Positions 13,708-53,740 of a stretch of 64,000 nt of DNA are shown piece after piece. The stretch's first letter is position 1; each line of letters opens with the position of its first letter. The notes beneath the pieces are model-generated. The model saw only the letters and a program-made list of their open reading frames with translations. It did not search any database and was not told the DNA's origin. The DNA is from a virus (lineage: Duplodnaviria > Heunggongvirae > Uroviricota > Caudoviricetes): the IMG/VR virus record IMGVR_UViG_2778261503_000006, one strand, 5' to 3'. Both the position numbers and the translations under genes were made by a program.

Positions 13708-13738
13708 ATGTTAGAAAATTAATTTGCTGTTTCTAAAA
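13708..13738 (+). promoter_or_regulatory. operator-like motif pair (atgttagaaaattaattt plus inverted partial gtttctaaaa)
   Basis: upstream of the icd-like/ant operon. Confidence 0.45.
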
Positions 13739-14067
13739 CGGAATGTATGATCTGCATCATCGACTGAAGTCATCCATTGCTGAAATTTTTAGTTGATCTT
13801 CCATGTTTTCAGGCTTATATTCATGCCGTCGTAGCAAATTCTGCGACCGGGTTTGACAGCCTGAATGTTAGTGCGGACAACCGCAGATTTCCGATATTGC
13901 GGTATTTTTGTGTCCGTAAACCGCGTTACGCCCGAATTATGGTGGGGCGTGATGGGGAGGCTTCGGCCTGCTGGTTTCACTAACGCCAGTCTGTCAACCC
14001 TGTCACGTCCTGCCACCTGTTTGACAGCGGGTGGCAGGTTGTTAAACCTGTTAGTGAGGCCGTAACT

Positions 14068-14292
14068 ATGGTTAATGCCAATCCTTGCTCACGTCCAGAA
14101 TTCATCTGGCGTTTCCACTCCCTGCAAAAACGCTGCGATCACTTCGCAATTGCCGCAACCGAAAAAGAAGCCCGTTCTCTGATCCCTGATCAGCATGGTG
14201 TTCTTACTGGTCGTTTCTCTACTTCCCCACAACCAAACACTAATCCCTGGTATCGCAATATTACCAATCCCGGCATTGCGGAGGCTCACTGA
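14068..14292 (+). CDS. icd: Icd-like host cell division inhibitor family small protein
   Basis: 74 aa; EFIWRF...AATEKEAR pattern; immediately precedes an antirepressor gene with TGATG overlap. Confidence 0.55.
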   Translation: MVNANPCSRPEFIWRFHSLQKRCDHFAIAATEKEARSLIPDQHGVLTGRFSTSPQPNTNPWYRNITNPGIAEAH

Positions 14293-14999
14293 TGGGTATC
14301 TGCATTCTCGAAAAACTATCAATGACCAGCATTGAGATTGCGGAGCTGGTGGGAAGCCAACACTCTGACGTTAAACGTAGTATTGAGCGTATGGTTGCTC
14401 GAAGCATTATCCGAAAACCGCCAATGGCTGTTTTCGAAAAAATCAATAACTTAGGATTGCGTCGTGGCGTTGAGGCTTACGTCTTCGAAGGCGAGCAAGG
14501 CAAACGAGACAGCATCATTGTCGTCGCGCAGCTCTCTCCCGAATTCACCGCCCGGCTGGTGGACCGCTGGCGCGAACTGGAAGAACAAGTACGCCAGCCG
14601 TTGACCGAAATAGAGATGATCGCTGCAATGGCTGCGAATGCAGTTCAGCAGCAAAAGCTGATTCATGCTGTTGAGTCAAAGGTTAGCCAGGTCGCTGAAA
14701 CCGTCGAGCAAATAAAGAAAGGCAATATTCCGGAAGGCTACATTGGCTACCGCCAGTTGGCGGCGAAATGCGGCCTGACTGAAGCCAAATGCCGAAACCT
14801 TGTCAACGCTTACCGGATTCCCACCGATACACATGAGTTTTTGACTCCAGAGGGGGTATTGTCGCGTCGTTCCATCGTGGCCTTATCTCCCTTCATGAAT
14901 GCTTTTAACCGGATGATGTCGGAGGCTGAACACCGAGGAAAACGCTGGTATCACCCCAAAATGGGGCAATTCCAGGTGATCGGTTGGGGAGGTGAGTGA
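14292..14999 (+). CDS. ant: phage antirepressor (Rha/Ant family)
   Basis: 235 aa; MTSIEIAELVGSQHSDVKRSIERM N-terminal Rha-type motif; C-terminal half near-identical to 52799..53740. Confidence 0.7.
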   Translation: MGICILEKLSMTSIEIAELVGSQHSDVKRSIERMVARSIIRKPPMAVFEKINNLGLRRGVEAYVFEGEQGKRDSIIVVAQLSPEFTARLVDRWRELEEQVRQPLTEIEMIAAMAANAVQQQKLIHAVESKVSQVAETVEQIKKGNIPEGYIGYRQLAAKCGLTEAKCRNLVNAYRIPTDTHEFLTPEGVLSRRSIVALSPFMNAFNRMMSEAEHRGKRWYHPKMGQFQVIGWGGE

Positions 15000-15196
15000 T
15001 GGACATCATGCAGGCGGTAAAAAAAATCAGGGAAGGACAGGCTGAAGTGTGCCGCCGTAAAGCATGGAGTGTTGGTGTATGGGCCTGGCCTGATAATTAC
15101 TCTACTACCGGATGGTTTTGTATTAATGGACTCCAGATCCGGGAAGTTGATTTATCGACGGCTGATATAGTCGGTAATGATTGGATCGTGACTTGA
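14996..15196 (+). CDS. DUF2829-like small protein (Tad2-like fold candidate)
   Basis: 66 aa; KKIREGQAEVCRRKAWSVGVWAWP...NDWIVT; homologous to the C-terminus of the fused 313-aa Ant at 52799..53740. Confidence 0.5.
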   Translation: MMDIMQAVKKIREGQAEVCRRKAWSVGVWAWPDNYSTTGWFCINGLQIREVDLSTADIVGNDWIVT

Positions 15197-15204
15197 AGCG
15201 TGAT

Positions 15205-15229
15205 GCCCCGGCCTGGCCGGGGCTTTTTT
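15205..15229. terminator. bidirectional rho-independent terminator between convergent genes
   Basis: gccccggcctggccggggc followed by tttttt. Confidence 0.7.
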
Positions 15230-15714
15230 CATGCCTCATTAGTTGAGGTTGCTGCGTCTCCGACTGGTAACAGGGCGGTATTGCGTGGTTCGCCAGCAGG
15301 CCAGCGATAGCCAGACACTCTTGATGTTGGGAATGCGCGAATATTAACCGCATCCCCCTGGTTCCCACCCAGGACAAGCAGATCGCCATTGGCGCGGCGT
15401 CCGACAACGAAGCCTACGTGCCCACCGCCTACGCGGGTAAATACAACGATACATCCGTATGCCGGTGTATCTAATTTCTCGCCCCAATCCAGATAGGATT
15501 TTGCCGACTCAAATCTTGTTGAGCGAATGCCTACACGTTCCAGCATTGCACCGACAAATGCTGCGCACCACGGCGTTTCATCGTCTTTAATTCCGCCGCG
15601 CTTGATGTCGCGCCAGAACTGAACGATTTCAGGGTTGTGTTTAGCGCCTTTTATTTCAGTCAAGCCAATGTGCTTACGGGCTTCAATTAGCCAGCGAGGT
15701 TCAATGTTTGCCAT
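15229..15714 (-). CDS. CHAP/NlpC-P60-like putative peptidoglycan hydrolase (TIGR02594-like)
   Basis: 161 aa; N-terminal Cys (PWCAAFVG) and downstream His (GGGHVGFVVG) spaced as in papain-fold amidases. Confidence 0.55.
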   Translation of the reverse strand: MANIEPRWLIEARKHIGLTEIKGAKHNPEIVQFWRDIKRGGIKDDETPWCAAFVGAMLERVGIRSTRFESAKSYLDWGEKLDTPAYGCIVVFTRVGGGHVGFVVGRRANGDLLVLGGNQGDAVNIRAFPTSRVSGYRWPAGEPRNTALLPVGDAATSTNEA

Positions 15715-15865: not shown

Positions 15866-18800
15866 TTGGACAAACTACTTCATTCAATCAGTGAAGCCTC
15901 CAGCTTAGGCGAACTGATTGAAATTGTTAGTCGGTTGCATAAATTACGTGCTGTTGCGACCTTTGGCGTCAGGAAAGCCGATGGCGTCAGTATTCAGAAA
16001 ACACGCCGGGCAGCAAACAATGCCGCAGTAAATCTTCTTAATTCCCTTCCGCCCGGCTTCGATGGGGCGAAATTAACTGACGAACAACGTCAGATTCTTG
16101 CTGGGTATACCGGTGAAGGCGGCCTGACAGATGGTGAGGGCAGCCAATACGAATACTACACGCCACAGTTTATGGCTGAAGGTATATGGGAGCTGTTTGC
16201 TGACTACGGTATTGATGGCGGTCACGTACTGGAACCATCAGCTGGCACGGGTATTTTCCAGGAGACAAAACGGCAGGGAATGATAATGACCAGCGCCGAG
16301 CTGTCTCCGATCTCCGGTCGAATCAACCAGCTGTTGCACCCGGAAGACGATGTGAACATTGGGGCGTTTGAGGCTCTGGCGGCGAAAGACGCAATGTATG
16401 ACCACGCTGTTGGTAACGTACCGTTTGGCGAAGGCCGTTCCGGCGTTGCAGGGCTTGATCCGGCATATGCAAACGAGAAGAACGTTGGCAATTACTTTGT
16501 GCTGCGCACGATCGACAAGGTTAAACCTGGTGGGCTTATCGTATTGGTGGTGCCGAATGGCATGACTGATGGTACGAAATACAAAAAATTGCGCGATAAA
16601 GTCAGCCGTAAAGCGGAATTTTTGGGCGCGCATCGTATGCCTTCCGGTACGTTCAGTGAATCAGGTACAGATACCGTGGTGGACGTATGGGTATTGCGTA
16701 AACACCCGGAAGCCTTCCTGGAGATGATCCCCGATACGGATGATTCGACGCTCAAATCGGCAAACGTCCTTTGGGTTACCTTCCTCAAAGGGAAATGGTT
16801 TACAACCGAAGGGAAGCGATTTGTTTACGGCGACATGGAACGTACCAGCTTCCGCAATACCCTAGTGGTGAAAAAAGACGGTCGTGTATCCAATGAGTCG
16901 ATGAAAACCGCGCTATCTCGTCGCTTTGATAGTCGCATCAATTGGGATTTGCTCGGCGTAACTACTCAGGCATGGCAGGGCGCGAAAGTGGGCGATAAAC
17001 GCCTTGTAGGCGGTATCTGGCATGAGTTTGATGGTCTGAAATGGGTTCAGGACACGACAACCAAATCCTCCGCGCTTGATGTAAGTCGATATGGTGTTTC
17101 GACGTTTGGCGATCTGCAGATCGCGTTCCAGTCAACAAACGGGATTCTGGCTTTGTCATGGGACCAGATATCGGCGATCGCGTCCGACTATCCATCGGTT
17201 GTCAGTGATGAAGTGGCAGCAATGATTCGCTTTGCTGGCAAGCAGCGAGAAAAAGACAGGGAGCGCGTTATGCGCGGTGCACTGATAGGTCAGTTGATCA
17301 ACAAGGCACTTGATTTGCGTAACCTGGGGGTGAACGTTGATGACAAACTGGCAGATGCATCCCGCTTGGCGGCAGCAGAAGTTGCGAAGTATGGACCACC
17401 GCACGCGATTAAGCTGAATGGGCTTGCTGAAGCTGGCGCTAAAAACTGGATGACGTTCACTGGCAATGTGAAACAGGATGGTTCCACTTCTGACCTTCTG
17501 GCAGGGCGACTTGATGTAACGGATGGTGCTGCCGGTATTGACTTTACGCGTCCTGAACAAGTGATAGCACATCTTTTTAGTGATGTAGCCCTTAATCCTA
17601 TAACGCTGGGCGACTTTCGTGAGGCGTTTGCTGGTGAACTGCCAGAGGACGACGACGCGGTCCTTGAATACCTGGCGAAATTTGATGATATCGCTATTGA
17701 TGGGTATGGCTGTCTGCTGCCGATGGACCGCGCCACCAGCGGCGATGTTGCAACCAAAACAGCACTGCTGGTGGGCTGGCGTGATGCGTCAACAGGTGAG
17801 CAGAAAGCGAACTTTGAGCGTCAGTTGGCGAAAATCGAAGAGAAACGCATTTTCACGCCACTAAATAAAGTCACCGTTAATCTGAATGCCCGCTGGCTGG
17901 ATCGCCGCTTGATAAAAGAGTTCCTGGCAGAGCAGGGCTATGACGAGTTTAAGTACACTGAACCTGATCTGAAGGTCGTCGATGGCATTCTGGTATCTCC
18001 GGACGATTACGAAGGTAAGGACGGGGTATTTACCGGCTATCAGCTACGAACCGTAAACGGCAAAAACGGGAATGAGTTCAAGAAGGCCAACAATAAAGAC
18101 GGCTTCCTGAACCAGTTAGAAAACTACCTGAACGGTGTTAAACCGCGTGGGCAGAACGCTAACGAGTACCTGGATAAAATTGCTCAACTGGAAGTTAGCT
18201 TTAACGACTGGTTACGCACCCACCCGCAGGCGGATCAGATAGCCCGTGACTATAACGACGCATTCAATGGTTTCATTCCGTTCACACATTCTGACGCACC
18301 GCTTGGCCTGGAAGGGATTAGTGGAAAGCGCATTCCTCTGACTTATCAGAATGAAGAAGTTCGGCGCTTGTCAGAAGATGGGCGTGGCATCATGGGATTT
18401 GGTACCGGGCTGGGTAAAACCACGACCGCGCTTGCGCTTGAGGCGTATAACTTCGAAACAGGTCGCACTAAACGCACGTGTATTGTTGTTCCGAAGGCGG
18501 TTTATCAGAACTGGTATCACGAGGCACAGAGTTTCTACAGTGCTGATGCCTTCGCCAATATGATGTTTATCGGTTTGGATGAAGTTCGTGATGACAGCGG
18601 AAATATTCTGACCGCGCCGGTGCTTGATGAAAATGGCGAACCACGCCTCGACAGTAACGGGCAGCCTCTTACCAGAAATGTTGTGAAAGAGTCCTCCAGC
18701 GCCGTTATCGTTCAGCGTATGAACATGATCCCGTCGTCAAATTGGCGAACGGTCATCATGACAAAAGAACAATTCGCGTCTATCCCGCTACGAGAAAAAA

Positions 18801-21800
18801 CCATCGAGGAGAACTCACAGCAAGCTGTCTTTAATGCTGTGGAAATGGGGCGTCTTGACCTGGCGTCCGGTAAACACCGTGATGCGCAGAAGAAGAACAA
18901 GATTAAGGATCAGGCCGCGAATACCGGTACAACGAAGAAGCAGAATATCCCTTACTTTGAGGATATGAACTTCGATAGCGTGATTGCCGACGAGGGGCAT
19001 AACTACCGCAACTCCTTTAATGCCGGGCGTGAAGCGGGACAACTGGCATATTTGCCTAACCCGGCAGTATCCAAGATGGCCCGCGACATGGCTGTAAAAG
19101 CTGCGTACATGATGAAACGCAACAACGGGCGTGGTGTAGTCATGCTGACGGCAACACCGCTGGTGAACAGTCCGATTGATGCCTTCAACATGCTGTCTAC
19201 TGTCATTCCGCAGGAAGAGTGGATGCGTATGGGCATCATTACGCCTGATGATTTCGTTCGTGTGTTTGGCAAAACAGCCACAGTTCAGGTCCAGAAAATT
19301 TCCGGGGAAGTGGAAGAGAAGCAGGGGCTGGTGGGCTTCCAGAACCTTGACGGCCTGCGTGGTATTTTCCATCGTTGGACCACTCTGAAGACTGCTGCAG
19401 ATGTCGGAGCGACGGTTAAAATTCCCGACATCATCGAGAACACCTTGCAGATCCCGATGACAGGGGAGCAGGAGACTGCTTATGAAGAGCTTCGTAAGCG
19501 TGCTCAGGAGTTAAGTCGCAATGATGAGCTGACAGTCGATGAAAACGGGCATATCACTAACGACAAACCGGATGATTTCATCTTCTCCATCATCCGTGAC
19601 ATGGATAAGGTTGCTATAGACCCGGATCTGTATGCCAGTGCGATTACATTCCAGTTCCCCGTTGAGCTTGCAGACCAGGTAAAAGCTATTGCTGATGCCT
19701 TGCCAAAAGTAGCTGGCGGTAAAGTGGCAGATGATGTTGATGAGGCCGAGGAAGACGGCGCTGGCGGGCTGGTCAGTACGCGTACCAGCAAGGTAGTGAA
19801 GACCGCTTTTAGTGAACATCCGACGCATGTTGAAATACGTGCCAGCATTGAACTGGAAGCTGAAATACTGAAGGCCATTGCGGCTGCCGGCATTGATATG
19901 CAGCAGGTGTCGCACCCCATCCCGCCGAAGTATGCCGCGCTGATCGAAAATCTTCGTGAAGGTCTGAAGAACGGTAAGCAGATCGTCTTTATTGATGAAA
20001 AAGCCCAGCACCAGAAGCTGCGCCGTATTATCGCCAGTGCACTGCAAATGCCGGAGCAGGAGATTGGCATTATCAATGCGACGACAGTTAGCCAGGCTGG
20101 TGGCATCAAGCTGAAGAAGGTGAATAAGCCGACCGAACCTACTCCAAACAAAAACGGTGAATACAAAGAAGGGGCATGGGAAACCTACTACAGCAAACTT
20201 GCCCAATATGAGGATTATCTCTCCGCTAAAAATGATGCTGGCCTTGAGGGCATGGAAGGTATTGCCGCCGACTATAACGAAGGTCGCACGCGCATCATAA
20301 TCTGTAACAAGAAGGCTGAAGTAGGTATTAACCTGCACATCGGGACAACCGATATCCACCACCTGACACTACCCTGGACACCAGCCAGTATCGACCAACG
20401 AAATGGGCGCGGTGCGCGCGTAGGTTCACCGCAAGAAAAGGTCAATGTTCACTACTATTGTGGCAAAGGCACATTCGACGACTTCCGTCTGGATACGCTG
20501 AAACGTAAGAAAGACTGGATCAAGATGGTGATGACATCCGACATGTCAGAGATCGCCAATGGTGATGCGGATGATGCTGATGAACGCGCCATTATGCTGG
20601 CGGCAAACCCGGAAGAACGCCGCGCAATCATGGCTCGCCAGGCGCAAGAGCGTGAAGAACGTCTGAAACTGAAAGCACAGCGCGAGGCCAACAATGCTCT
20701 CGATATCTACCTGAAAGCGGCAAACGCCGCCGGAAAAGATATCGGCATGATGGAGACAGAACTGAAAAGCGCGATGGAACAGATAGAGTATTACCAGCGC
20801 AATCTTGACGACCTGATAAAAGCGGGTACGAACAGGAATGGGCAAAAATACGCGCTTGAGCAGTTGAGTAGCTACAGAAAACGTGCGCGGGTGCTGCGGT
20901 TTGCGATCACCAGGGCAAAAGACGCGGATACCATAATGAAACGCTCTCGTGGTGATGTGGAGCGCGCTATTAAGTCTGGTGTGCTGGATATCAGTATCGA
21001 TGTTATTCAGAACCCACAGGAATATATGCGCACTGACAAGAATATCCTGTTGCATAAAGGTAGTTATTACCGTGCAGTCATTGATGATCGCGAAACAACA
21101 GCGATTGTCCGGGTGGAAAAAATTGACGGTGAAAAAGCACAATACCTCTGCCGTATCGCCTGGCTGGATAGAGCAAGTCGTTACGCTCGAGCACCGGGGT
21201 CAATCGTTACATTGCCGTTTGACTCTGTGATTGAAGCGGTAACTTTTGAAGAGGGGGTAGCTGAATCGCGCGCAACGGCTGCGCGTGGTGTTCAGTGCCA
21301 CCAGCTATCAACAATACTTACTCGCGATCAGTTCTATGATGCTATTCGCAATGGGGTAATGAATGTTATTGCTGGTAAACCTGGTAATGCATGGGGCGGT
21401 GGGTCAGCTATTAAATACTGGGCATATCGCACAGATGATGGTCAGATCGCGCTGTCATCGGCCTATGATGGCGTGATAGGCCAAAAAATCGGGCGAGCAT
21501 CGGATATAGCACCTGAGCGATGGATATATCCTGATGGCAACGACGAGGCGCTGAAGCGTGAAGTGGCAAAAATACAAGCCAGTGATAACCCGCTGAATAT
21601 CGTGGACGGCGAGGGATTCCTCCAGGCATTGTATGGGTATGATTACACCCAGGGAATGCAGGCATGGGGCGCACAGGCAACGATGGATGATGTTGCCCAT
21701 GAGTTCGAAAACTGGATGGCTGGGCGTGGTCTGTCAGGTCGTTCGCTTAATAAAGTCACTTCTGAAGATATTCTTAGCTTGTTCCGCAAACCGTCCGGAG

Positions 21801-22702
21801 AAGGTCTGGAATCATTCTGGAGGACCGTGCTGGCATACCGTTTATTCCAGGGCAGGATGAAAGCCTTTAGCAATATCGATGATATTGAACGGATGTTTAA
21901 TCAGGTCAAGATCGCGAAAATTAAGGCGAAGATCGAAAAAACACGTTCTGCGCTGGTGGCCTGGCGCGATGCATTGTTTGAGCAATATAAATCACTCAGT
22001 GATGCAGATGGATGGGCGGCATTGGAACAGCTGGCGAATAATGGGGTAGATGGAGCGAAACTCGCCATTGTTCAGGCTGATAACCCCCTGGAATCACCGG
22101 CAGCACAGTGGATTAAGGTGGGGGCTGTCATCAATGCATTTGATGAAAAACACATTAGTAAGGACGATTTTGCTGATGCTGTTTCTGTTAATCGCCTGGT
22201 AGAAATGGCTACCCGCCGCGCCCGTGAGTTGAAAGACGGCGACTATGTGAATGAGTTGCCGGATACGCTCAAATCGGCAACGTGGCAGGACTATGTATCG
22301 CTGAAAAACGGCGGGGCCACTGAATCAGAGATCGCGGAAAGGCTTGAGCAGGCTGAAAGCAAAAGAGAAGAGCAGGCGGCAGTGGCTGAAGCCAGAGCTG
22401 ATGAAGCGGCGAATGATGACTATATCATTGTGGTTAATGATAAGCCGATTCGCGCTAAGGCGCGTGTTCGCGGGCGCTGGTGGAGCGTCAGCGAGGACGT
22501 TGGCGCGGTTTATCTCATTGCCGACCAACCAGGTTCCTCGACAATACGGAACGCCAAAGACGCGATTAAGAAGATTGGCGGACGTTTCTGGAATTTTGAA
22601 GCAAACCCGGTTGCTGATGTGAACTTTGACCGTCCTGCATGGATGGTATCTACGCGTTACTCGGTAGATGAACTGCGTAAAATAATCGCCGATGCGGCCT
22701 AA
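15866..22702 (+). CDS. darB: DarB-like giant antirestriction protein: N-terminal N6-adenine-methyltransferase-like domain plus SF2 helicase domain
   Basis: 2278 aa from TTG 15866 with AGAGGGGGAA RBS; EPSAGTGIF (nt 16232-16258) and GNVPF MTase-like motifs; Walker A GFGTGLGKTT (nt ~18394-18423), DEGH box (nt ~18986-19000), motif VI QRNGRGAR. Confidence 0.75.
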   Translation: MDKLLHSISEASSLGELIEIVSRLHKLRAVATFGVRKADGVSIQKTRRAANNAAVNLLNSLPPGFDGAKLTDEQRQILAGYTGEGGLTDGEGSQYEYYTPQFMAEGIWELFADYGIDGGHVLEPSAGTGIFQETKRQGMIMTSAELSPISGRINQLLHPEDDVNIGAFEALAAKDAMYDHAVGNVPFGEGRSGVAGLDPAYANEKNVGNYFVLRTIDKVKPGGLIVLVVPNGMTDGTKYKKLRDKVSRKAEFLGAHRMPSGTFSESGTDTVVDVWVLRKHPEAFLEMIPDTDDSTLKSANVLWVTFLKGKWFTTEGKRFVYGDMERTSFRNTLVVKKDGRVSNESMKTALSRRFDSRINWDLLGVTTQAWQGAKVGDKRLVGGIWHEFDGLKWVQDTTTKSSALDVSRYGVSTFGDLQIAFQSTNGILALSWDQISAIASDYPSVVSDEVAAMIRFAGKQREKDRERVMRGALIGQLINKALDLRNLGVNVDDKLADASRLAAAEVAKYGPPHAIKLNGLAEAGAKNWMTFTGNVKQDGSTSDLLAGRLDVTDGAAGIDFTRPEQVIAHLFSDVALNPITLGDFREAFAGELPEDDDAVLEYLAKFDDIAIDGYGCLLPMDRATSGDVATKTALLVGWRDASTGEQKANFERQLAKIEEKRIFTPLNKVTVNLNARWLDRRLIKEFLAEQGYDEFKYTEPDLKVVDGILVSPDDYEGKDGVFTGYQLRTVNGKNGNEFKKANNKDGFLNQLENYLNGVKPRGQNANEYLDKIAQLEVSFNDWLRTHPQADQIARDYNDAFNGFIPFTHSDAPLGLEGISGKRIPLTYQNEEVRRLSEDGRGIMGFGTGLGKTTTALALEAYNFETGRTKRTCIVVPKAVYQNWYHEAQSFYSADAFANMMFIGLDEVRDDSGNILTAPVLDENGEPRLDSNGQPLTRNVVKESSSAVIVQRMNMIPSSNWRTVIMTKEQFASIPLREKTIEENSQQAVFNAVEMGRLDLASGKHRDAQKKNKIKDQAANTGTTKKQNIPYFEDMNFDSVIADEGHNYRNSFNAGREAGQLAYLPNPAVSKMARDMAVKAAYMMKRNNGRGVVMLTATPLVNSPIDAFNMLSTVIPQEEWMRMGIITPDDFVRVFGKTATVQVQKISGEVEEKQGLVGFQNLDGLRGIFHRWTTLKTAADVGATVKIPDIIENTLQIPMTGEQETAYEELRKRAQELSRNDELTVDENGHITNDKPDDFIFSIIRDMDKVAIDPDLYASAITFQFPVELADQVKAIADALPKVAGGKVADDVDEAEEDGAGGLVSTRTSKVVKTAFSEHPTHVEIRASIELEAEILKAIAAAGIDMQQVSHPIPPKYAALIENLREGLKNGKQIVFIDEKAQHQKLRRIIASALQMPEQEIGIINATTVSQAGGIKLKKVNKPTEPTPNKNGEYKEGAWETYYSKLAQYEDYLSAKNDAGLEGMEGIAADYNEGRTRIIICNKKAEVGINLHIGTTDIHHLTLPWTPASIDQRNGRGARVGSPQEKVNVHYYCGKGTFDDFRLDTLKRKKDWIKMVMTSDMSEIANGDADDADERAIMLAANPEERRAIMARQAQEREERLKLKAQREANNALDIYLKAANAAGKDIGMMETELKSAMEQIEYYQRNLDDLIKAGTNRNGQKYALEQLSSYRKRARVLRFAITRAKDADTIMKRSRGDVERAIKSGVLDISIDVIQNPQEYMRTDKNILLHKGSYYRAVIDDRETTAIVRVEKIDGEKAQYLCRIAWLDRASRYARAPGSIVTLPFDSVIEAVTFEEGVAESRATAARGVQCHQLSTILTRDQFYDAIRNGVMNVIAGKPGNAWGGGSAIKYWAYRTDDGQIALSSAYDGVIGQKIGRASDIAPERWIYPDGNDEALKREVAKIQASDNPLNIVDGEGFLQALYGYDYTQGMQAWGAQATMDDVAHEFENWMAGRGLSGRSLNKVTSEDILSLFRKPSGEGLESFWRTVLAYRLFQGRMKAFSNIDDIERMFNQVKIAKIKAKIEKTRSALVAWRDALFEQYKSLSDADGWAALEQLANNGVDGAKLAIVQADNPLESPAAQWIKVGAVINAFDEKHISKDDFADAVSVNRLVEMATRRARELKDGDYVNELPDTLKSATWQDYVSLKNGGATESEIAERLEQAESKREEQAAVAEARADEAANDDYIIVVNDKPIRAKARVRGRWWSVSEDVGAVYLIADQPGSSTIRNAKDAIKKIGGRFWNFEANPVADVNFDRPAWMVSTRYSVDELRKIIADAA

Positions 22703-27135: not shown

Positions 27136-27210
27136 GATGGTGTAGCTCAGCGGTAGAGCAGTTGGCTGTTAACCAACTGGTCGGTGGTTCGAATCCACCC
27201 ACCATCGCCA
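27136..27210 (+). tRNA. tRNA-Asn (anticodon GUU)
   Basis: manual cloverleaf: acceptor gatggtg/caccatc, D-arm gctc/gagc, anticodon loop ctGTTaa, T-loop ttcgaat, 3' CCA. Confidence 0.85.
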
Positions 27211-27215
27211 ATTTA

Positions 27216-27302
27216 GGGGAGTTAGTCCGTAGGGGTAGCGGGGTAGACTGTAAATCTACTGTCATTGCGACTCGGGTGGTTCGACTCCATCACTCCCCAC
27301 CA
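27216..27302 (+). tRNA. type II tRNA-like gene, anticodon GUA (Tyr) by manual fold; D-arm non-canonical
   Basis: acceptor ggggagt/actcccc, anticodon stem gtaga/tctac with loop ctGTAaa, long variable arm, T-loop ttcgact, 3' CCA. Confidence 0.55.
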
Positions 27303-27306
27303 AATT

Positions 27307-27382
27307 GCCGGTTTAGCTCAGTTGGTAGAGCAGTCGCTTTGTAAGCGAATGGTCAGCGGTTCGATCCCGTTAACCGGCACCA
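27307..27382 (+). tRNA. tRNA-Thr (anticodon UGU)
   Basis: acceptor gccggtt/aaccggc, D-arm gctc/gagc, anticodon loop ttTGTaa, T-loop ttcgatc, 3' CCA. Confidence 0.8.
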
Positions 27383-27836
27383 ACACAACAGGTAAGAGCA
27401 TTTGTAGAGTTCGACTCTCTACCGTGGGCTTTTTCCCGCGATGCGAGCCATAAATGCTCTTACCGTTGTGATGAAGTGCAGCTCTTTGAAGCAACCAGAA
27501 GATAAGCATCTGGCTTCACAACATAAACCGCAGGAACGACCAATAAACGGTAGTCCGTATGGAGAACACCCCGTTGAGGAAGAGGTCTGGCCGGAACCGT
27601 AACCGGCACTACAACGTTGAGAACACTGGCGTAACGGGGTCATATCCCAATCTACGAATAAATGTTGCGTTGCAGCGTGACAACCAGTGTTCTCAACATT
27701 GTGGTGAATGCGCAGGCTGATGCGCGAAAGACATTGCAGCTATTGCGGAAAAGAGCTGTTCGGCGGGGCAATTAAACGCCCGTGAGAGTCTGAAATAACC
27801 GCAAGCCGGAGATCAGCACCGGTCGCCACAATAACG

Positions 27837-27923
27837 GGAGAGTAGGGAGCATGGTGCTCAAGCGGTCTTGAAAACCGTCCCATTGCGCAAGCGATGATGG
27901 TTCGATTCCATTACTCTCCGCCA
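27837..27923 (+). tRNA. type II tRNA-Ser-like (anticodon UGA); D-arm short
   Basis: acceptor ggagagt/actctcc, anticodon arm gcggt-ctTGAaa-accgt (very like E. coli tRNA-Ser), 17-nt variable arm, T-loop ttcgatt, 3' CCA. Confidence 0.55.
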
Positions 27924-28214
27924 GTGCAACATTAAGGGTATTTGGCTAATTAAGCGAATGCCGGAAGCAGAACCGGATCACCAAATGCGTACAGGCGTCA
28001 TCGCCGCCCAGTCAGCCAAATGCTCTTACCATTGCGGTGAATGCGGCTAAGCGCACGCGGAACAGTTAAAACAGTAAAGGTGGTCTTTTTACTGGCGTAA
28101 CGAGAATCCATAAGTGATCCGGCGTTAATTGTTAACTGGTTAACGTCACCGGGAGGCGCCCGGCACCGCAACCTAACAGCAATGGCGTTTTGTCTTAAAA
28201 GGTGGCTGCAAGTG

Positions 28215-28343
28215 ATGGATTTTTGGGCGTTTGCCGATAAAAACCCGGAGTGGACATTATTGTTTCTGCTGGTGGTTGCATACGGGGTAGAGCAAGCGGC
28301 AAAAGCCTTACGCGGTTCTGGCAAAAAGCGTAAGCGTAATTAA
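28215..28343 (+). CDS. candidate 42-aa small membrane protein (below the track's size cut-off)
   Basis: ATG 28215 preceded by AAGGTGG; hydrophobic core TLLFLLVVAYGV and K/R-rich tail; ends 10 nt before a tRNA. Confidence 0.25.
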   Translation: MDFWAFADKNPEWTLLFLLVVAYGVEQAAKALRGSGKKRKRN

Positions 28344-28352
28344 CAGTAATCT

Positions 28353-28428
28353 GGCCCTTTAGCTCAGTGGTTAGAGCGGGCGACTCATAATCGCACGGTC
28401 ACCGGTTCAAGTCCGGTAGGGGCCACCA
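28353..28428 (+). tRNA. tRNA with anticodon CAU (elongator Met or Ile2/lysidine type)
   Basis: acceptor ggccctt/aggggcc with G1-C72, D-arm gctc/gagc, anticodon loop ctCATaa, T-loop ttcaagt, 3' CCA. Confidence 0.8.
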
Positions 28429-32483: not shown

Positions 32484-33521
32484 TTACCAGAGCTTCGCGG
32501 CGTACTGCGTTTGGGGGAATGTGTATCCGTAACGTTCTTCGATTGCTTTGCCGTATTTTTTACGAGCTTCATTCAGTTTTATGCCGGTCAGGTCGTCTCC
32601 AGAGGCCATCATTACGTCTAACAATTCCAGATCCATTTTATCCAGCCTTGCCATTGCTTCACGTGATGTACGTATCTTACGCTCAATGATATGGCGAATA
32701 GCCGGATCGGCATCCTCCAGCATCTTAGCGGATTTCTGCTTAAGGCTTTCATTGCGAATATCGATGTTCCTTAAGATGTACGACTTCGCAACGTAGCTTG
32801 GCTGGTGTTTTTCCAGGTCACGAACACGATATAAGTTAAAATCGCCGAGAAGGCTGCAAGGTACCGATTCGACGCCAGAATAAATTGTAATGCTCCGGCG
32901 CTCACCAACATTATTGACAACGGGGATCGTTGTCTTCGGTAGTCTTGCGAAAACCAATGCGCCATGTGCGCCAACTCTAAAGCGAGAAAGGGCATTGCTG
33001 CCTTCGATGTTTGTTGTCAGCACAACATCTGTATATGCCTCTTTACGCGCCCGGTAGATCTCGCCTTCAGGCTCAGCTTCAAAGAAGCGCTGTTCTTCTT
33101 CAAGAGCACCTACGATTTGAGAAAAAACCCTATTTTTCAGGCTTTTCTTTATGATTTTGTCGTATTTTTTGAGCAATTGTTCACGTGTAAATGTACGTGT
33201 TGTTGTAGCGCTTTGCACAACAACATGCGTGCTTTGATTGGTGTCCTCAATGATGAATGGGATCGGAGAATATACAGACTCAACAATGTTCGACGCTTTG
33301 CCGTCGGCATCGCGGCACATGTCAACGAAGGCTTTCCATTCAGCAAGACATTTTTCAGCTTCTTCTAATATGTTTTGGTCATGCGTTAATGCAACATGGC
33401 GGAATTCCTCGCCAGCATAACTGGTATCATGGAAAACAGAGTTTGCGACCACCAGCTCTTTCCACCGTTCAGCGGTTTGCAGGAACCGTTTGTACTCTTT
33501 CTCGATCGACTTCTTACTCAT
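32484..33521 (-). CDS. hypothetical protein divergent from the recombinase locus (candidate immunity repressor by position only)
   Basis: 345 aa; operator-like motif 14-37 bp upstream of its start; no motif recognised. Confidence 0.5.
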   Translation of the reverse strand: MSKKSIEKEYKRFLQTAERWKELVVANSVFHDTSYAGEEFRHVALTHDQNILEEAEKCLAEWKAFVDMCRDADGKASNIVESVYSPIPFIIEDTNQSTHVVVQSATTTRTFTREQLLKKYDKIIKKSLKNRVFSQIVGALEEEQRFFEAEPEGEIYRARKEAYTDVVLTTNIEGSNALSRFRVGAHGALVFARLPKTTIPVVNNVGERRSITIYSGVESVPCSLLGDFNLYRVRDLEKHQPSYVAKSYILRNIDIRNESLKQKSAKMLEDADPAIRHIIERKIRTSREAMARLDKMDLELLDVMMASGDDLTGIKLNEARKKYGKAIEERYGYTFPQTQYAAKLW

Positions 33522-52103: not shown

Positions 52104-52271
52104 ATGACGGTTCGCTACCTCAACTTTCAAATCAAGAACATTACTGGCGGTTGCTATGACTGGTTTGTCACTCTCGGAAAAGAAGTGATCACCGGGAAGC
52201 TGGATGAAGTGAAAGCTAAAGCAATGGCCTACGCCTGCAAGCAAGCCCGGAAGAAATCCGCCAAAGCATAA
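52104..52271 (+). CDS. candidate 55-aa small protein
   Basis: ATG 52104 with GGAGGTG RBS; below track size cut-off. Confidence 0.3.
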   Translation: MTVRYLNFQIKNITGGCYDWFVTLGKEVITGKLDEVKAKAMAYACKQARKKSAKA

Positions 52272-52376
52272 AATACTGACTGTTGCGCCCTGGCATTATC
52301 GTGGGGTATATTTCTACGGCACCTTAGAAAAACGGGTGCCGGGATTGAGACCCCGGATAATGCAAAAGGCGACACA

Positions 52377-52398
52377 GACGCCGAAAGCGTCTTTTTTT
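52377..52398 (+). terminator. rho-independent terminator
   Basis: gacgccgaaagcgtc followed by ttttttt. Confidence 0.7.
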
Positions 52399-52447
52399 GT
52401 GTCATGCCATCGCACAGCCATACGTAGCGTATAGCTCCAAGATCAAT

Positions 52448-52523
52448 GGTAGTGCTGGCTGGGCTGCCGAAAGGCAGGCCGGTTCCCTTTTGCGCCGGTA
52501 GTCTCAACCCAGCCAGTGCTACC
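52448..52523 (+). ncRNA. candidate structured antisense-type RNA upstream of the icd-like gene (c4-like by analogy); unverified
   Basis: 16-bp outer stem ggtagtgctggctggg/cccagccagtgctacc enclosing two hairpins. Confidence 0.3.
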
Positions 52524-52583
52524 GCCATTGAGATTGAGACCTCACGCGGTAGCTCCTTAAATTAGCAAAAGGAGGCTGCCAAT

Positions 52584-52799
52584 ATGGCTACTATCCCTAC
52601 CCCAACTCATTCTGAATTTATCTGGCGTTTCTATTCCTGCCAAAAGCACCTGTATATCTGCGTCATGGCTGCTACCGAATCAGAGGCGCGCTCATACCTT
52701 CCCGAAGAACCCTGCATTTTTGCTGCTCGCTTCACTCTTGATGCGATGGAGATCCTCAATTACTGGAATCTGCCGATGAACTGCGTGGAGGTGCGCTGA
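52584..52799 (+). CDS. icd: Icd-like small protein (second copy)
   Basis: 71 aa; SEFIWRFYSCQKH...AATESEARSYLPEEPCIFAARF; TGATG overlap with the ant gene. Confidence 0.55.
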   Translation: MATIPTPTHSEFIWRFYSCQKHLYICVMAATESEARSYLPEEPCIFAARFTLDAMEILNYWNLPMNCVEVR

Positions 52800-53740
52800 T
52801 GAATCTGTCCATCTCTCAAAAAGCGACAATGACCAGCATTGAGATCGCGGAGCTGGTAGGAAGTCGCCCAGATAGTGTGAAGAGAACTATCGAAACACTG
52901 GCTAAAAAGAGTGTGATCCAATTTCCACAATCTGTGGAAATTGAAAATAAACAATCAGTTGGCCCTCGTCGATTTTCCAAGGCTTACATCTTTGAAGGCG
53001 AACAAGGAAAACGAGACAGCATCATTGTCGTCGCGCAGCTCTCTCCGGAATTCACCGCCCGGCTGGTGGACCGCTGGCGCGAACTGGAGAATGCCCGGGT
53101 ACAGTTAAAATCAAAAGCCGAAATCCTGGCTGAAATGGCGCAAATGCATCTTGAGCATGAACGCCGGATCAACGCCGTAAATGCCCAGGTAGCCGAGGTA
53201 TCAGCACAAGTATCGATGGTCGCTGAAACCGTCGAGCAAATAAAGAAAGGCAATATTCCGGAAGGCTACATTGGCTACCGCCAGTTGGCGGCGAAATGTG
53301 GCCTGACTGAAGCCAAATGTCGCAACCTGGTTAACGCTTACCGGATTCCCACCGATACGCATGAGTTTTTAACTCCAGATGGTTTGCTTGCGCGACGCTC
53401 CATTGTGGCCCTGGCCCCCTTCCGGAAAGCCTTTAAGCAGGTGATGTCAGAGGCAGAACCACGCAATAAACGCTGGTATCATCCAAAGATGGGGATGTTT
53501 CAGGCAATCCACCATCCTGTGCCTGAAAGTCCAAAGGCAAACCTGTCGTTGCATACCGCCAGAGAGAGGATTAAAACAGGCTATGCAATCGTATGCCGTC
53601 GAGCATCCTGGCCTGAAGGTGTATGGGTGTGGCCCGAAGGTGGATCACGAAAGCACTGGCGCACTATCCGGGATGGGAAAATCCATGCGATTGATTTAGC
53701 TCCAGAGGATGTTGTTGCTACGGACTGGATTGTTAGTTAA
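52799..53740 (+). CDS. ant: phage antirepressor (Rha/Ant family) fused to a C-terminal DUF2829-like domain
   Basis: 313 aa; N-terminal MTSIEIAELVGSRPDSVKRTIE; C-terminal YAIVCRRASWPEGVWVWPE...ATDWIVS equals the separate 66-aa ORF of the first copy. Confidence 0.7.
   Translation: MNLSISQKATMTSIEIAELVGSRPDSVKRTIETLAKKSVIQFPQSVEIENKQSVGPRRFSKAYIFEGEQGKRDSIIVVAQLSPEFTARLVDRWRELENARVQLKSKAEILAEMAQMHLEHERRINAVNAQVAEVSAQVSMVAETVEQIKKGNIPEGYIGYRQLAAKCGLTEAKCRNLVNAYRIPTDTHEFLTPDGLLARRSIVALAPFRKAFKQVMSEAEPRNKRWYHPKMGMFQAIHHPVPESPKANLSLHTARERIKTGYAIVCRRASWPEGVWVWPEGGSRKHWRTIRDGKIHAIDLAPEDVVATDWIVS

What the first reader, a model, noticed from the sequence alone, without database searches (positions are those of the whole stretch)
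14068..15196. Two immI-like modules (icd-like + antirepressor) in one element, one split and one fused to a DUF2829-like domain
Seen: 14068-15196 encodes icd-like (74 aa), Ant (235 aa) and a separate 66-aa ORF; 52584-53740 encodes icd-like (71 aa) and a 313-aa Ant whose last ~60 aa equal the 66-aa ORF. The Ant C-terminal halves are near-identical while the N-terminal Rha-type regions differ. Upstream of both lie hairpin-rich untranslated regions (13950-14060; 52448-52523, the latter a 16-bp outer stem enclosing two hairpins). Established: P1 immI is c4 antisense RNA, icd, ant. Inference: the upstream structured regions may encode c4-like antisense RNAs.
Basis: partly seen in the sequence, partly recalled or inferred. 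Interest (0 to 1): 0.55.

Follow-up and report, generated by a model that had tools for sequence, protein, structure and literature searches.

The report
Two RNA-locked phage antirepressor operons
This plasmid-borne P1/D6-like prophage carries two diverged copies of the classic P1 "immI" switch (a small antisense RNA that blocks a cell-division-inhibitor/antirepressor operon), each with its own RNA specificity; the arrangement is real and conserved but has already been noted for D6-like phages, so it is largely ordinary.

Summary
Both modules exist at the stated coordinates and are diverged paralogues: Ant 66% identical, Icd 43%, DUF2829-like part 40%. They are not an assembly duplicate.

Rfam places a C4 antisense RNA above its curated threshold upstream of each icd (13935-14020 and 52442-52529). 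Each C4 has loop sequences complementary to one site pair upstream and one over the icd ribosome-binding site.

- **Module 1:** its c4 is base-for-base identical to phage P1 c4, but it drives a Rha-type Ant rather than P1 Ant1/2.
- **Module 2:** it has a different, orthogonal specificity. Its upstream target pair lies inside an IsrK-family leader RNA that ends in an intrinsic terminator.
- **Covariation:** across related elements the three sites change together. 64 of 65 leaders keep the b triad, against about 1.5 of 65 in a swapped control.
- **DUF2829-like part:** the 66-aa ORF and the Ant2 C-terminus have a Tad2 (anti-Thoeris sponge) fold. Distant members of this small family sit directly behind a c4 RNA.

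The window is a D6-like phage-plasmid. Both modules occur in about 100 plasmid records, and a 2019 paper already mentions the second antisense RNA/icd region. This is a member of a known kind and of modest interest. The IsrK/a1b1 equivalence and the c4-Tad2-like link are the fresher points.

The parts
13708..13722 (+). Candidate operator for the D6-type C1 repressor (ATGTTAGAAAATTAA). It sits upstream of module 1, in the position of P1 Oc4/Op51.
   Evidence: The motif occurs 12 times in the window against about 0.85 in shuffles. Other copies lie next to c1, repL and ref. It aligns with the P1 Oc4 region. Its function is inferred.
13793..13821 (+). Module 1 promoter-like site (TTGATC-17-TATATT), homologous to P1 P1c4/P51b.
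   Evidence: Promoter scan. It aligns with the annotated P1 promoter.
13815..13874 (+). Module 1 leader carrying target sites a1 (13853-13859, TTGACAG) and b1 (13867-13874, GTTAGTGC).
   Evidence: Rfam c4-a1b1 RF03163 at 55.2 bits against a threshold of 46.7. The sites are identical to the P1 annotation.
13935..14020 (+). c4 antisense RNA of module 1. The mature core is 13941-14017, with b' at 13977-13984 and a' at 13991-13997. It is identical to P1 c4.
   Evidence: Rfam C4 at 68.8 bits. The 77-nt core is identical to L003 2634-2710. Predicted fold -42.5 kcal/mol.
14021..14060 (+). Module 1 targets a2 (14021-14027) and b2 (14050-14057), overlapping the icd Shine-Dalgarno sequence.
   Evidence: Exact complementarity to a'/b' and identical to the P1 a2/b2 annotation.
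14068..14292 (+). icd-like gene 1 (74 aa).
   Evidence: NCBIfam NF033153 phage_ICD_like, E 1e-9. PHROG 1426. About 53% identical to P1 Icd.
14292..14999 (+). Rha/Roi-type putative antirepressor 1 (235 aa).
   Evidence: Pfam Phage_pRha at 30.6 bits against a cut-off of 29.9. PHROG 63 'anti-repressor Ant', E 1e-46. No similarity to P1 Ant1 or KilA.
14996..15196 (+). Stand-alone mini-Tad2-like (DUF2829-like) ORF of 66 or 65 aa, translationally coupled to ant.
   Evidence: Pfam Tad2-like E 0.034, but all 6 family members hit it, best E 3.6e-9. AF2 model pLDDT 92. The top 13 PDB fold hits are all Tad2, TM 0.73-0.77.
15205..15232 (+). Intrinsic terminator that closes module 1. It lies between module 1 and the convergent CHAP hydrolase gene.
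   Evidence: Terminator scan: 8 GC pairs followed by a T run.
52283..52312 (+). Inferred promoter of module 2 (TTGCGC-18-TATATT), 7 nt upstream of the IsrK-like 5' end.
   Evidence: Read from the sequence. It falls below the scan's threshold. Inference only.
52319..52399 (+). IsrK-family leader RNA of module 2. a1 (52345-52351, TTGAGAC) sits in a hairpin loop and b1 (52362-52369, GCAAAAGG) in the linker. An intrinsic terminator follows at 52376-52399.
   Evidence: Rfam isrK RF01394 at 59.1 bits against a threshold of 50. Terminator scan. Complementarity to c4-2.
52442..52529 (+). c4 antisense RNA of module 2, with b' at 52486-52493 (CCUUUUGC) and a' at 52501-52507 (GUCUCAA).
   Evidence: Rfam C4 at 76 bits, E 5e-13. 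Fold -49.1 kcal/mol with a 16-bp outer stem and two hairpins.
52534..52575 (+). Module 2 targets a2 (52534-52540) and b2 (52565-52572), overlapping the GGAGG Shine-Dalgarno of icd.
   Evidence: Exact complementarity. Three-site covariation in relatives.
52584..52799 (+). icd-like gene 2 (71 aa).
   Evidence: NCBIfam NF033153, E 2e-13. 43% identical to Icd1.
52799..53740 (+). Rha/Roi-type putative antirepressor 2 (313 aa). Residues 249-313 (53543-53737) form a fused mini-Tad2-like domain.
   Evidence: BLASTP against Ant1 and orf66. PHROG 63 matched over its full length, and PHROG 7385 matched at residues 252-312. Hundreds of near-identical 313-aa proteins occur on contigs of about 90 kb.

Best explanation
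The window is part of a D6-like phage-plasmid, a P1 relative. It carries two paralogous immI-type anti-immunity operons, and each is locked by its own c4-family antisense RNA.

**How each operon is built.** A promoter transcribes, in order: a leader with target sites a1/b1, the c4 RNA, a second target pair a2/b2 over the icd ribosome-binding site, and then icd. A Rha-type putative antirepressor (Ant) is translationally coupled to icd, and a mini-Tad2-like module follows. That module is a separate coupled ORF in module 1 and is fused to Ant in module 2.

**How the lock works.** The excised c4 RNA pairs through its loop b' and junction a' with a2/b2. This blocks icd translation and, through coupling, Ant expression. 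In an established lysogen the operon is therefore silent. On entry into a cell that lacks the matching c4, the operon can fire.

**Why the two locks are independent.** Module 1 uses exactly the P1 c4 specificity. Module 2 uses a different a/b pair, so neither RNA should control the other operon.

**The module 2 leader.** It is an IsrK-family RNA that ends in an intrinsic terminator. By analogy with Gifsy-1 IsrK, the short terminated leader probably titrates or competes for c4 pairing, and only read-through transcripts carry c4-icd-ant.

**Shown here:** the RNA family matches, the complementarity, the covariation, the gene order, the stop-start overlaps and the Tad2-like fold.

**Inferred:** RNA processing, repression in vivo, that the Rha-type proteins inactivate the D6 C1-like repressor, and the role of the Tad2-like part.
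For: - **RNA families:** two C4 hits, one c4-a1b1 hit and one isrK hit, all above Rfam's gathering scores.
- **Module 1 matches P1:** its c4 and all four target sites are identical to the experimentally annotated P1 features.
- **Module 2 complementarity:** exact 7- and 8-nt matches at both flanks, with b2 overlapping GGAGG 9 nt before the ATG.
- **Covariation in the P1-type family:** P1 and this window, P7, and D6 carry different a/b sets, and a1/a'/a2 and b1/b'/b2 change together.
- **Covariation in the module 2 family:**
  - 7 a/b combinations occur in 49 leaders.
  - In a wider scan, all 65 leaders with an a1:a' match have a2.
  - 64 of 65 also have a b triad of at least 7 nt, against 1.55 of 65 when b' is swapped between loci.
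- **Proteins:** Icd-like proteins are confirmed. The Ants match PHROG 63 and Rha. The junctions are TGATG overlaps.
- **Conservation:** both modules are present in phage D6, and about 100 plasmid records hold each at full length.
- **Experimental precedent for the leader:** Gifsy-1 IsrK terminates at its own terminator. In trans it activates translation of the downstream ORF and antirepressor, and an RNA of about 80 nt is processed from the read-through transcript (PMC4825925).
- **isrK and C4 go together:** in 16 other loci, all 19 isrK hits are followed 22-65 nt later by a C4 hit.
Against: - Nothing here shows transcription, RNase P processing or repression in this element.
- The Ants are Rha/Roi-family proteins with no similarity to P1 Ant1/2 or KilA and no solved relative. 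'Antirepressor' therefore rests on operon position and family names.
- The local C1-like repressor is only 21% identical to P1-type C1.
- No candidate C1 operator lies within about 500 nt of the module 2 leader, so how module 2 connects to the lysis-lysogeny circuit is unknown.
- ViennaRNA does not clearly prefer the terminator hairpin in the module 2 leader, and the leader z-scores are weak at -1.3 and -2.0.
Confidence: 0.85

Rival explanations
1. Only module 1 belongs to the element's own immunity circuit. Module 2 would be a mobile IsrK-c4-icd-ant cassette that moves among P1-like, D6-like and lambdoid prophages. Its main role would be in competition between phages, either by inducing or disarming other prophages or by extending immI-type immunity to a second class of incoming phage.
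For: - Module 1 occupies the P1-like position next to repL and has a candidate C1 operator upstream. Module 2 has none nearby.
- Nearly the same leader-c4 unit, with a different Ant, sits between pacB and c1 in the P1-like phages RCS47 and JL22.
- isrK-C4 units occur in many prophage contigs of about 40 kb, sometimes as tandem arrays.
- The a and b determinants are shuffled combinatorially, as expected for an immunity-specificity arms race.
Against: - Module 2 is as conserved in D6-like plasmids as module 1: 92 versus 110 full-length records.
- Its Ant is a close paralogue of Ant1, with blocks 93-100% identical. This suggests a shared target or partner.
- This rival is not mutually exclusive with the main explanation.
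Confidence: 0.3
2. The Rha-type proteins are not antirepressors. They would be DNA-binding regulators of lytic development, as the names 'Rha family transcriptional regulator' and Roi-like suggest. The c4 RNAs would then gate a transcription factor rather than a repressor antagonist.
For: - Pfam gives Rha and weak winged-helix hits only.
- NCBI names these proteins 'Rha family transcriptional regulator' or 'DNA-binding protein'.
- There is no homology to P1 Ant1/2.
Against: - The best profile match is PHROG 63 'anti-repressor Ant', E 1e-46 and 1e-61.
- The position behind c4-icd is the one occupied by proven antirepressors in P1 and by AnrP in Gifsy-1, whose expression induces the prophage.
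Confidence: 0.3
3. The Tad2-like ORF and domain is a genuine anti-defence sponge for TIR/Thoeris signalling nucleotides. It would ride in the c4-controlled early operon, so that it is made on infection or induction but is silent in the lysogen.
For: - The model has a Tad2 fold: the top 13 PDB hits are all Tad2, with probability 1.0.
- Every family member hits Pfam Tad2-like, best E 3.6e-9.
- PDB sequence-profile hits are Tad2 and AcrIIA7.
- The family is tied to c4. Stand-alone members lie 45-53 nt behind a C4 RNA whose b2 site covers their ribosome-binding site.
Against: - The window sequences score below Pfam's cut-off: 15.1 and 12.4 bits against 25.
- The domain is about 25 residues shorter than Tad2.
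- The model lacks helix alpha2, which forms the Tad2 dimer interface.
- Ligand-contact residues could not be checked.
- Fusion to Ant could instead mean that the domain serves only for oligomerisation or partner binding.
Confidence: 0.3
4. The second module is an assembly or duplication artefact, or the 'RNAs' are chance hairpins.
For: None found.
Against: - The modules share no DNA similarity outside ant, and only 78% within it.
- Both are present in the finished phage D6 genome and in about 100 independent plasmid records.
- The Rfam E-values are 5e-13 and 3e-11.
Confidence: 0.01

Closest known systems
P1/P7 immI region (c4 antisense RNA, icd, ant1/ant2)
   Same: - The order is the same: promoter, a1/b1, c4, a2/b2 over the icd RBS, icd, then a coupled ant.
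- Module 1 shares 93% DNA identity with P1 from the P51b -10 region into icd.
- Its c4 and target sites are identical to those of P1.
- Specificity is set by a and b triads, as in the P1/P7 heteroimmunity pair.
   Different: - Ant is a Rha/Roi-type protein of 235 or 313 aa, not Ant1/Ant2.
- A Tad2-like ORF or domain is appended.
- repL lies upstream rather than downstream.
- There are two modules per genome.
- Module 2 has an IsrK-type leader with an intrinsic terminator.
Phage D6 (MF356679) and D6-like plasmid prophages such as pYU39_89
   Same: - The window matches D6 at 93% (module 1) and 98% (module 2). The same flanking genes are present: repL, darB and the CHAP hydrolase on one side, and ref and pmgF on the other.
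- The D6 record annotates both icd genes and both 'putative anti-repressors'.
[quoted passage not shown]
   Different: - D6's module 1 has a different b specificity (ACTTACG), whereas this element carries the P1 one (GTTAGTG).
- The D6 record annotates no c4 RNA.
- The D6 genome paper itself (PMC5800970) could not be read.
Gifsy-1 IsrK-orf45-anrP locus of Salmonella (PMC4825925)
   Same: - The module 2 leader is an Rfam isrK hit ending in an intrinsic terminator. It is followed by a processed-RNA-sized structured element and an antirepressor gene.
- In every locus tested, an isrK hit is followed by a C4 hit.
- In locus L108, positions G28/G31 and C159/C162 fall in a1 and a'. They would form exactly the pairs tested by compensatory mutation in that paper.
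   Different: - The paper interprets the c4-sized region as coding 'orf45' plus STnc1160. It compares IsrK with P4 seqA and does not mention P1 c4.
- The Gifsy-type locus L108 has a BRO-N-type antirepressor and no recognisable icd.
- The identity of L108 with strain SL1344 was not verified.
P4 CI RNA with seqA/seqC, and N15 CA RNA anti-immunity system (from my own knowledge; P4 is also mentioned in PMC4825925)
   Same: A small RNA is processed from the leader of the operon it controls, and complementary sites lie on both sides of it. The terminator next to the upstream site in module 2 recalls control by premature termination.
   Different: In P4 and N15 the RNA acts by transcription termination. 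P1 c4 acts at the icd RBS. Which of these applies to the a1/b1-terminator unit here is untested.
Tad2 (DUF2829, PF11195) anti-Thoeris sponge; AcrIIA7
   Same: The fold matches: helix alpha1, a beta-sheet, alpha3 and a C-terminal D-W-[IV] motif. TM-score is 0.73-0.77 to SPO1 and Myroides Tad2. Profile hits point the same way.
   Different: - It is about 65 residues long against about 89.
- It lacks helix alpha2.
- It scores below the Pfam threshold.
- It is fused to, or coupled with, an antirepressor and sits under c4 control.
- Ligand binding is unknown.

Membership tests
C4 antisense RNA (Rfam RF01695; P1/P7 c4) | Sequence and structure match the covariance model above the curated gathering score. 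| tested here: met
   68.8 bits (13935-14020) and 76.0 bits (52442-52529) against a threshold of 45, over the full model length.
C4 antisense RNA (Rfam RF01695; P1/P7 c4) | Loop b' and junction a' are complementary to a2/b2 overlapping the RBS of the downstream icd gene, and to an upstream a1/b1 pair. | tested here: met
   Exact 7-8 nt matches at all four sites in both modules. Three-site covariation in relatives.
C4 antisense RNA (Rfam RF01695; P1/P7 c4) | The RNA is excised from the operon's own transcript (RNase P processing) and represses icd/ant in trans. | not testable with these tools
   This needs RNA mapping and reporter assays. It is inferred from the identity of the module 1 RNA to P1 c4.
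P1-type immI operon | An Icd-like small ORF lies directly downstream of c4 and is translationally coupled to the next gene. | tested here: met
   NF033153 hits, E 1e-9 and 2e-13. TGATG overlaps at both icd/ant junctions.
P1-type immI operon | The antirepressor is homologous to P1 Ant1/Ant2. | tested here: not met
   tblastn of P1 Ant1 and KilA against the window gives no hit at E 1e-3 or better. The proteins here are Rha-type.
IsrK Hfq-binding RNA (Rfam RF01394) | Covariance-model score above the gathering score, with three hairpins, the last being an intrinsic terminator. | tested here: met
   59.1 bits against 50 at 52319-52397. Terminator at 52376-52392 followed by a T run.
IsrK Hfq-binding RNA (Rfam RF01394) | Binds Hfq, and the short form activates the downstream antirepressor in trans. 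| not testable with these tools
   Known only for Gifsy-1 (PMC4825925).
Phage_pRha (PF09669) | Pfam score above the curated cut-off of 29.9 bits. | tested here: inconclusive
   Ant1 scores 30.6 bits (met). Ant2 scores 26.2 bits (below the cut-off). Near-identical Ant2 homologues do carry a precomputed PF09669 hit.
Tad2-like / DUF2829 (PF11195) | Pfam score above the curated cut-off of 25 bits. | tested here: not met
   15.1 and 12.4 bits for the two window copies. Relatives in the same small family reach E 3.6e-9.
Tad2-like / DUF2829 (PF11195) | Tad2 fold. | tested here: met
   AF2 model pLDDT 92. The top 13 Foldseek PDB hits are all Tad2, TMq 0.73-0.77, probability 1.0. The model lacks helix alpha2.
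Tad2-like / DUF2829 (PF11195) | Forms a homotetramer that binds gcADPR or His-ADPR and inhibits Thoeris. | not testable with these tools
   This needs biochemistry. Contact residues were not compared.
D6-like phage-plasmids | Near-identical DNA and the same gene order around both modules. | tested here: met
   93% and 98% identity to MF356679, with the same neighbouring genes. 100% identity to plasmid NZ_CP035876.1 for module 1.

The most novel reading that the evidence does not exclude
The mini-Tad2-like module may be a third, conserved payload of c4-locked operons. It occurs in three arrangements: c4-icd-ant-tad2, c4-icd-ant::tad2 and c4-tad2 alone.

The antisense RNA would keep an immune-signal-binding protein silent in the lysogen and release it on infection or induction.

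In the fused Ant2, binding of a TIR/Thoeris nucleotide might be coupled to antirepressor activity. The prophage would then sense, or quench, host abortive-infection signalling.

Alongside this, IsrK-family sRNAs would be the a1/b1 decoy leaders of c4 immunity modules. That would re-explain the Gifsy-1 'orf45/STnc1160' data as c4 biology.
Probability: 0.2. Interest if true: 0.7.

Novelty: new member of a known kind. Interest (0 to 1): 0.35.

Why it matters
As given, the finding adds little. c4-icd-ant is the textbook P1 immI system, and the duplicated module in D6-like phage-plasmids is already annotated and mentioned in print.

What could matter is in the detail:
- **Specificity code:** the a and b determinants form a combinatorial code, with 4 a types and about 17 b types seen here. 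They are swapped as small patches between P1-like, D6-like and lambdoid prophages. This D6-like element carries the exact P1 lock on a different antirepressor, which predicts immI cross-immunity with P1.
- **IsrK:** Rfam's IsrK family appears to be the a1/b1-bearing leader of c4 modules. That would unify the Gifsy-1 IsrK literature with P1 c4 biology and give a function to the long-unexplained a1/b1 sites.
- **Tad2-like family:** a tiny Tad2-fold family is found almost only behind c4 RNAs. This gives a testable link between prophage anti-immunity operons and nucleotide-signalling defence.

Tried and rejected
- **Assembly duplication.** Rejected: the modules are diverged and both are conserved in many finished records.
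- **P1 C1 operator near either module.** The consensus ATTGCTCTAATAAATTT has no match with 3 or fewer mismatches anywhere in the window. I derived a different recurrent motif instead. RCS47's second module does carry a P1-type operator.
- **Homologues of the 66-aa ORF.**
  - The word-indexed search found only 3 proteins.
  - The exhaustive HMMER search found 7 representatives.
  - Homology to Tad2 therefore had to be argued through family-wide Pfam hits and the fold.
- **Solved relatives of Ant.** None were found. I did not model the full Ant.
- **Retrieving the real Salmonella Gifsy-1 IsrK locus.** The mapping of published IsrK mutations onto a1:a' therefore rests on IMG/VR locus L108, whose ATG position differs by 1 nt from the paper's numbering. 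I treat it as suggestive.
- **A c4-dependent terminator/antiterminator switch in the leaders.** Folding gave near-equal alternatives and weak z-scores. I do not claim it.
- **The minus-strand ORFs over the RNAs** (13789-14016 and 52229-52528; the latter is named 'ash family protein' in some plasmid records). They have no Pfam or NCBIfam support and are probably spurious.
- **The D6 genome paper (PMC5800970).** It is not held in the library.
Full report
**1. Observation**

- Module 1: icd-like 14068-14292 (74 aa), ant 14292-14999 (235 aa), and a 66-aa ORF at 14996-15196. An ATG at 14999 would give 65 aa.
- Module 2: icd-like 52584-52799 (71 aa) and ant 52799-53740 (313 aa).
- All three internal junctions are TGATG stop-start overlaps.

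The paralogues are clearly diverged.
- The Ants are 66% identical over 237 aa.
- The Icds are 43% identical.
- The 66-aa ORF is 40% identical to Ant2 residues 249-313, E 2e-17.

Ant similarity is mosaic rather than split into N- and C-terminal halves. Identity in 30-aa blocks is 60, 30, 93, 40, 65, 100, 80 and 67%. At the DNA level only ant aligns: 78% over 14473-14966 versus 52980-53494. The leaders, RNAs and icd genes do not align. This excludes an assembly duplicate.

**2. RNA elements**

An Rfam scan of the whole window at gathering thresholds found four relevant matches.
- C4 antisense RNA (RF01695) at 13935-14020 (68.8 bits) and at 52442-52529 (76.0 bits). The threshold is 45, and both hits cover the full model.
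- c4-a1b1 (RF03163) at 13815-13867.
- isrK (RF01394) at 52319-52397 (59.1 bits against 50).

With their downstream targets, the two RNAs fold with z-scores of -4.4 and -5.4.

**3. Targets**

*Module 1.* The 77-nt core at 13941-14017 is identical to the annotated P1 c4 RNA. The sites are a1 13853-59, b1 13867-74, a2 14021-27 and b2 14050-57, and b2 runs into the GAGG before the ATG. These are the sequences annotated in the P1 GenBank record as C4 binding sites. DNA homology to P1 (93%) runs only from the P51b -10 region into icd, 13808-14179. A TTGATC-17-TATATT promoter-like site at 13793-13821 corresponds to P51b. A strong terminator at 15205-15232 closes the operon.

*Module 2.* Loop b' (CCUUUUGC, 52486-93) and junction a' (GUCUCAA, 52501-07) are exactly complementary to two site pairs.
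- a2 (52534-40) and b2 (52565-72). b2 overlaps GGAGG, 9 nt before the icd ATG.
- a1 (52345-51) and b1 (52362-69), which lie inside the IsrK-like leader. There a1 is in a hairpin loop and b1 is in the linker just before an intrinsic terminator at 52376-52399.

The determinants of the two modules differ: TTGACAG/GTTAGTG in module 1 and TTGAGAC/GCAAAAGG in module 2. Neither target set occurs in the other module. The two locks should therefore be orthogonal.

**4. Covariation**

*P1-type family.* P1 and this window, P7, and D6 carry three different a/b sets. In each, a1/a'/a2 and b1/b'/b2 change together. D6 itself differs from this window only in the three b sites.

*Module 2 family.* 49 unique leaders from 80 IMG/VR loci show seven a/b combinations with the same three-way compensation. 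One apparent recombinant, L036, has an a1 that no longer matches a'.

*Wider scan.* A pattern scan for the IsrK-type a1 hairpin gave 79 unique leaders.
- 65 have an exact a1:a' complement, and all 65 also have a2.
- 64 of 65 have a b triad of at least 7 nt. When b' windows are swapped between loci the figure is 1.55 of 65.
- Four a types and about 17 b types were seen.

I regard this as the strongest evidence that the pairings are functional.

**5. What the element is, and prior knowledge**

The window matches Escherichia phage D6 (MF356679) at 93% for module 1 and 98% for module 2, with the same neighbours. These are repL, a CHAP hydrolase and darB on one side, and ref and pmgF on the other.
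- In PLSDB, 110 records hold module 1 and 92 hold module 2 at 80% coverage or more. At least 11 accessions appear in both top-30 lists.
- One E. coli plasmid, NZ_CP035876.1, is 100% identical to module 1.
- The 313-aa fused Ant occurs on hundreds of contigs of about 90 kb from E. coli and Salmonella.
- The D6 record already annotates both icd genes and both 'putative anti-repressors', though no c4.
- The P1-like phages RCS47 and JL22 also carry a second leader-c4-icd-ant unit. In RCS47 it lies between pacB and c1, has a P1-type C1 operator upstream and uses a different Ant.

Two immI modules per genome is therefore a known and recurrent arrangement.

**6. The IsrK connection**

In 16 further loci, each of the 19 isrK hits is followed 22-65 nt downstream by a C4 hit. 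In two loci the isrK and c4-a1b1 models hit the same place. Two prophage contigs carry tandem isrK-C4 arrays.

The Gifsy-1 study (PMC4825925) reports four things.
- IsrK ends at its own terminator.
- Read-through gives the operon mRNA.
- A stable RNA of about 80 nt (STnc1160) is processed from that mRNA.
- Short IsrK in trans activates translation of the downstream 'orf45' and the antirepressor AnrP.

That paper notes that orf45 is conserved as nucleotides but not as protein. It compares IsrK with P4 seqA and never with P1 c4.

In locus L108, which has the best isrK score, G28 and G31 lie in a1, and C159 and C162 lie in a'. They would pair as G28-C162 and G31-C159, exactly the compensatory pairs tested in that paper. 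I could not verify that L108 equals the SL1344 sequence, and the ATG position differs by one nucleotide.

None of the papers I could search links IsrK with c4 a1/b1. My inference is that IsrK-family RNAs are the a1/b1 leaders of c4 modules. The module 2 leader would then act as in Gifsy-1, most simply as a decoy for c4.

**7. Proteins**

- *Icd.* Both match NCBIfam phage_ICD_like. Each is about 53% identical to P1 Icd.
- *Ant.*
  - Both are Rha-type. Pfam gives 30.6 and 26.2 bits against a cut-off of 29.9.
  - Both match PHROG 63 'anti-repressor Ant'.
  - They are unrelated to P1 Ant1 and KilA and have no solved relative.
- *The 66-aa ORF and the Ant2 C-terminus.*
  - They form a very small family, with 7 representatives in 1.8 billion clusters.
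  - The window copies hit Pfam Tad2-like (formerly DUF2829) only weakly. All six family members hit it, best E 3.6e-9.
  - A family profile finds Tad2 and AcrIIA7 chains first in the PDB.
  - An AlphaFold model with pLDDT 92 has Tad2 structures as its top 13 Foldseek hits, TM 0.73-0.77 and probability 1.0, with nothing comparable after them.
  - The model lacks Tad2 helix alpha2, which is part of the dimer interface described in 10.1101/2023.05.01.538930.
- *Association with c4.*
  - Two distant members, P0124 and P0125, are stand-alone genes on contigs of about 90-110 kb.
  - They lie 45-53 nt downstream of Rfam C4 plus c4-a1b1 hits, and the b2 site covers their ribosome-binding site.
  - Among 211 fetched loci, the family occurs only in D6-like modules and in these loci.
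  - The Tad2-like unit is therefore a recurrent cargo of c4-controlled operons in three arrangements: alone, coupled to Ant, and fused to Ant.

**8. Mechanism**

The P1 steps below come from established knowledge of immI (Citron and Schuster 1990 and later work from that laboratory, cited from memory) and from the P1 record notes.

c4 is cut out of the operon's own transcript. It pairs with a2/b2 and blocks icd translation, and ant expression depends on icd translation. The same should hold for both modules here, independently, because their a/b codes differ.
- Module 1 should be cross-repressed by P1 c4.
- A candidate operator for the local C1-like repressor (gene at 32727-33503, minus strand, 21% identical to P1-type C1) lies at 13708-13722.
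- That motif, ATGTTAGAAAAnTAA, has 12 copies in the window against about 0.85 in shuffles. Other copies lie next to c1, repL and ref.
- No copy lies within about 500 nt of the module 2 leader, so module 2 may be constitutively transcribed and controlled only by its RNA.

**9. Verdict**

The feature is a member of a known kind: P1-type immI in a D6-like phage-plasmid. The duplication itself is already in the literature.

The points that seem fresh are three:
- the exact P1 lock on a non-P1 antirepressor;
- the IsrK/a1b1 equivalence with its combinatorial specificity code;
- the c4-linked mini-Tad2 family.

All three rest on computation only.

Noticed in passing
window 52319-52397; loci L004, L090-L159: All 19 Rfam isrK hits examined are followed 22-65 nt later by a C4 hit. 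In L101 and L126 the isrK and c4-a1b1 models hit the same site. IsrK-family sRNAs therefore look like the a1/b1 target leaders of c4 modules. Rfam does not place isrK in the C4 clan, and the papers I could search do not make the link.
   Followed up: yes
L108 5953-6282: In this Gifsy-like locus the published IsrK mutations G28A and G31A and their compensating partners C162U and C159U (PMC4825925) map onto the a1:a' duplex. The start of the paper's 'orf45' coincides with the conserved AUGG at the 5' end of the c4 RNA, so orf45/STnc1160 may be the c4 homologue. L108 was not shown to be identical to SL1344.
   Followed up: partly
L207 2752-3291; L209 2746-3207: On other contigs of about 90-110 kb, stand-alone mini-Tad2-like genes (96 and 68 aa) lie directly behind a c4-a1b1 leader and a C4 RNA. 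There is no icd or ant between them, and the b2 site covers their ribosome-binding site.
   Followed up: partly
window 12505, 13708, 23610, 24653, 25902, 29865, 33536, 34946, 48263, 51115, 51769, 57551 (15-mers): The recurrent motif ATGTTAGAAAAnTAA has 12 copies against about 0.85 in shuffles. Copies lie next to the c1-like gene, repL, ref and module 1. It is probably the operator of the D6-type C1 repressor. The P1 operator consensus is absent from the window.
   Followed up: partly
window 52229-52528 (-) and 13789-14016 (-): These minus-strand ORFs of 99 and 75 aa lie exactly over the isrK/c4 RNAs. The first is annotated 'hypothetical' in D6 and 'ash family protein' in many plasmid records, but neither has a Pfam or NCBIfam hit. 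They are probably spurious ORF calls over structured RNA genes.
   Followed up: partly
L090 9709-11209; L131 3225-4066: There are tandem arrays of three (L090) and two (L131) isrK-C4 units spaced about 650 nt apart in prophage contigs. Multiple c4 locks per element are therefore not confined to D6-like phages.
   Followed up: no
L036: In this one module 2-type leader, a1 (TTGAGAC) no longer matches its own a' (GTTCCAA), while a2 does. It looks like a recombinant between specificity types at the leader/c4 boundary.
   Followed up: no
L004 2907-4600 (RCS47); JL22 hit H28: The P1-like phages RCS47 and JL22 carry a second IsrK-c4-icd-ant unit between pacB and c1. It has a P1-type C1 operator (ATTTGCTCTAATAAATT) upstream and a 371-aa Ant of a different family.
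   Followed up: partly
window 27136-28425: Four tRNA genes cluster here (Rfam tRNA hits at 27136-27207, 27216-27299, 27307-27379 and 28353-28425). This is consistent with the tRNA region described for D6-like plasmids.
   Followed up: no
window 15229-15714 (-) and 15866-22702 (+): A CHAP-domain peptidoglycan hydrolase lies convergent with module 1. It is followed by a 2278-aa DarB-like methyltransferase/helicase, in the same order as D6 orf16 and orf15.
   Followed up: no
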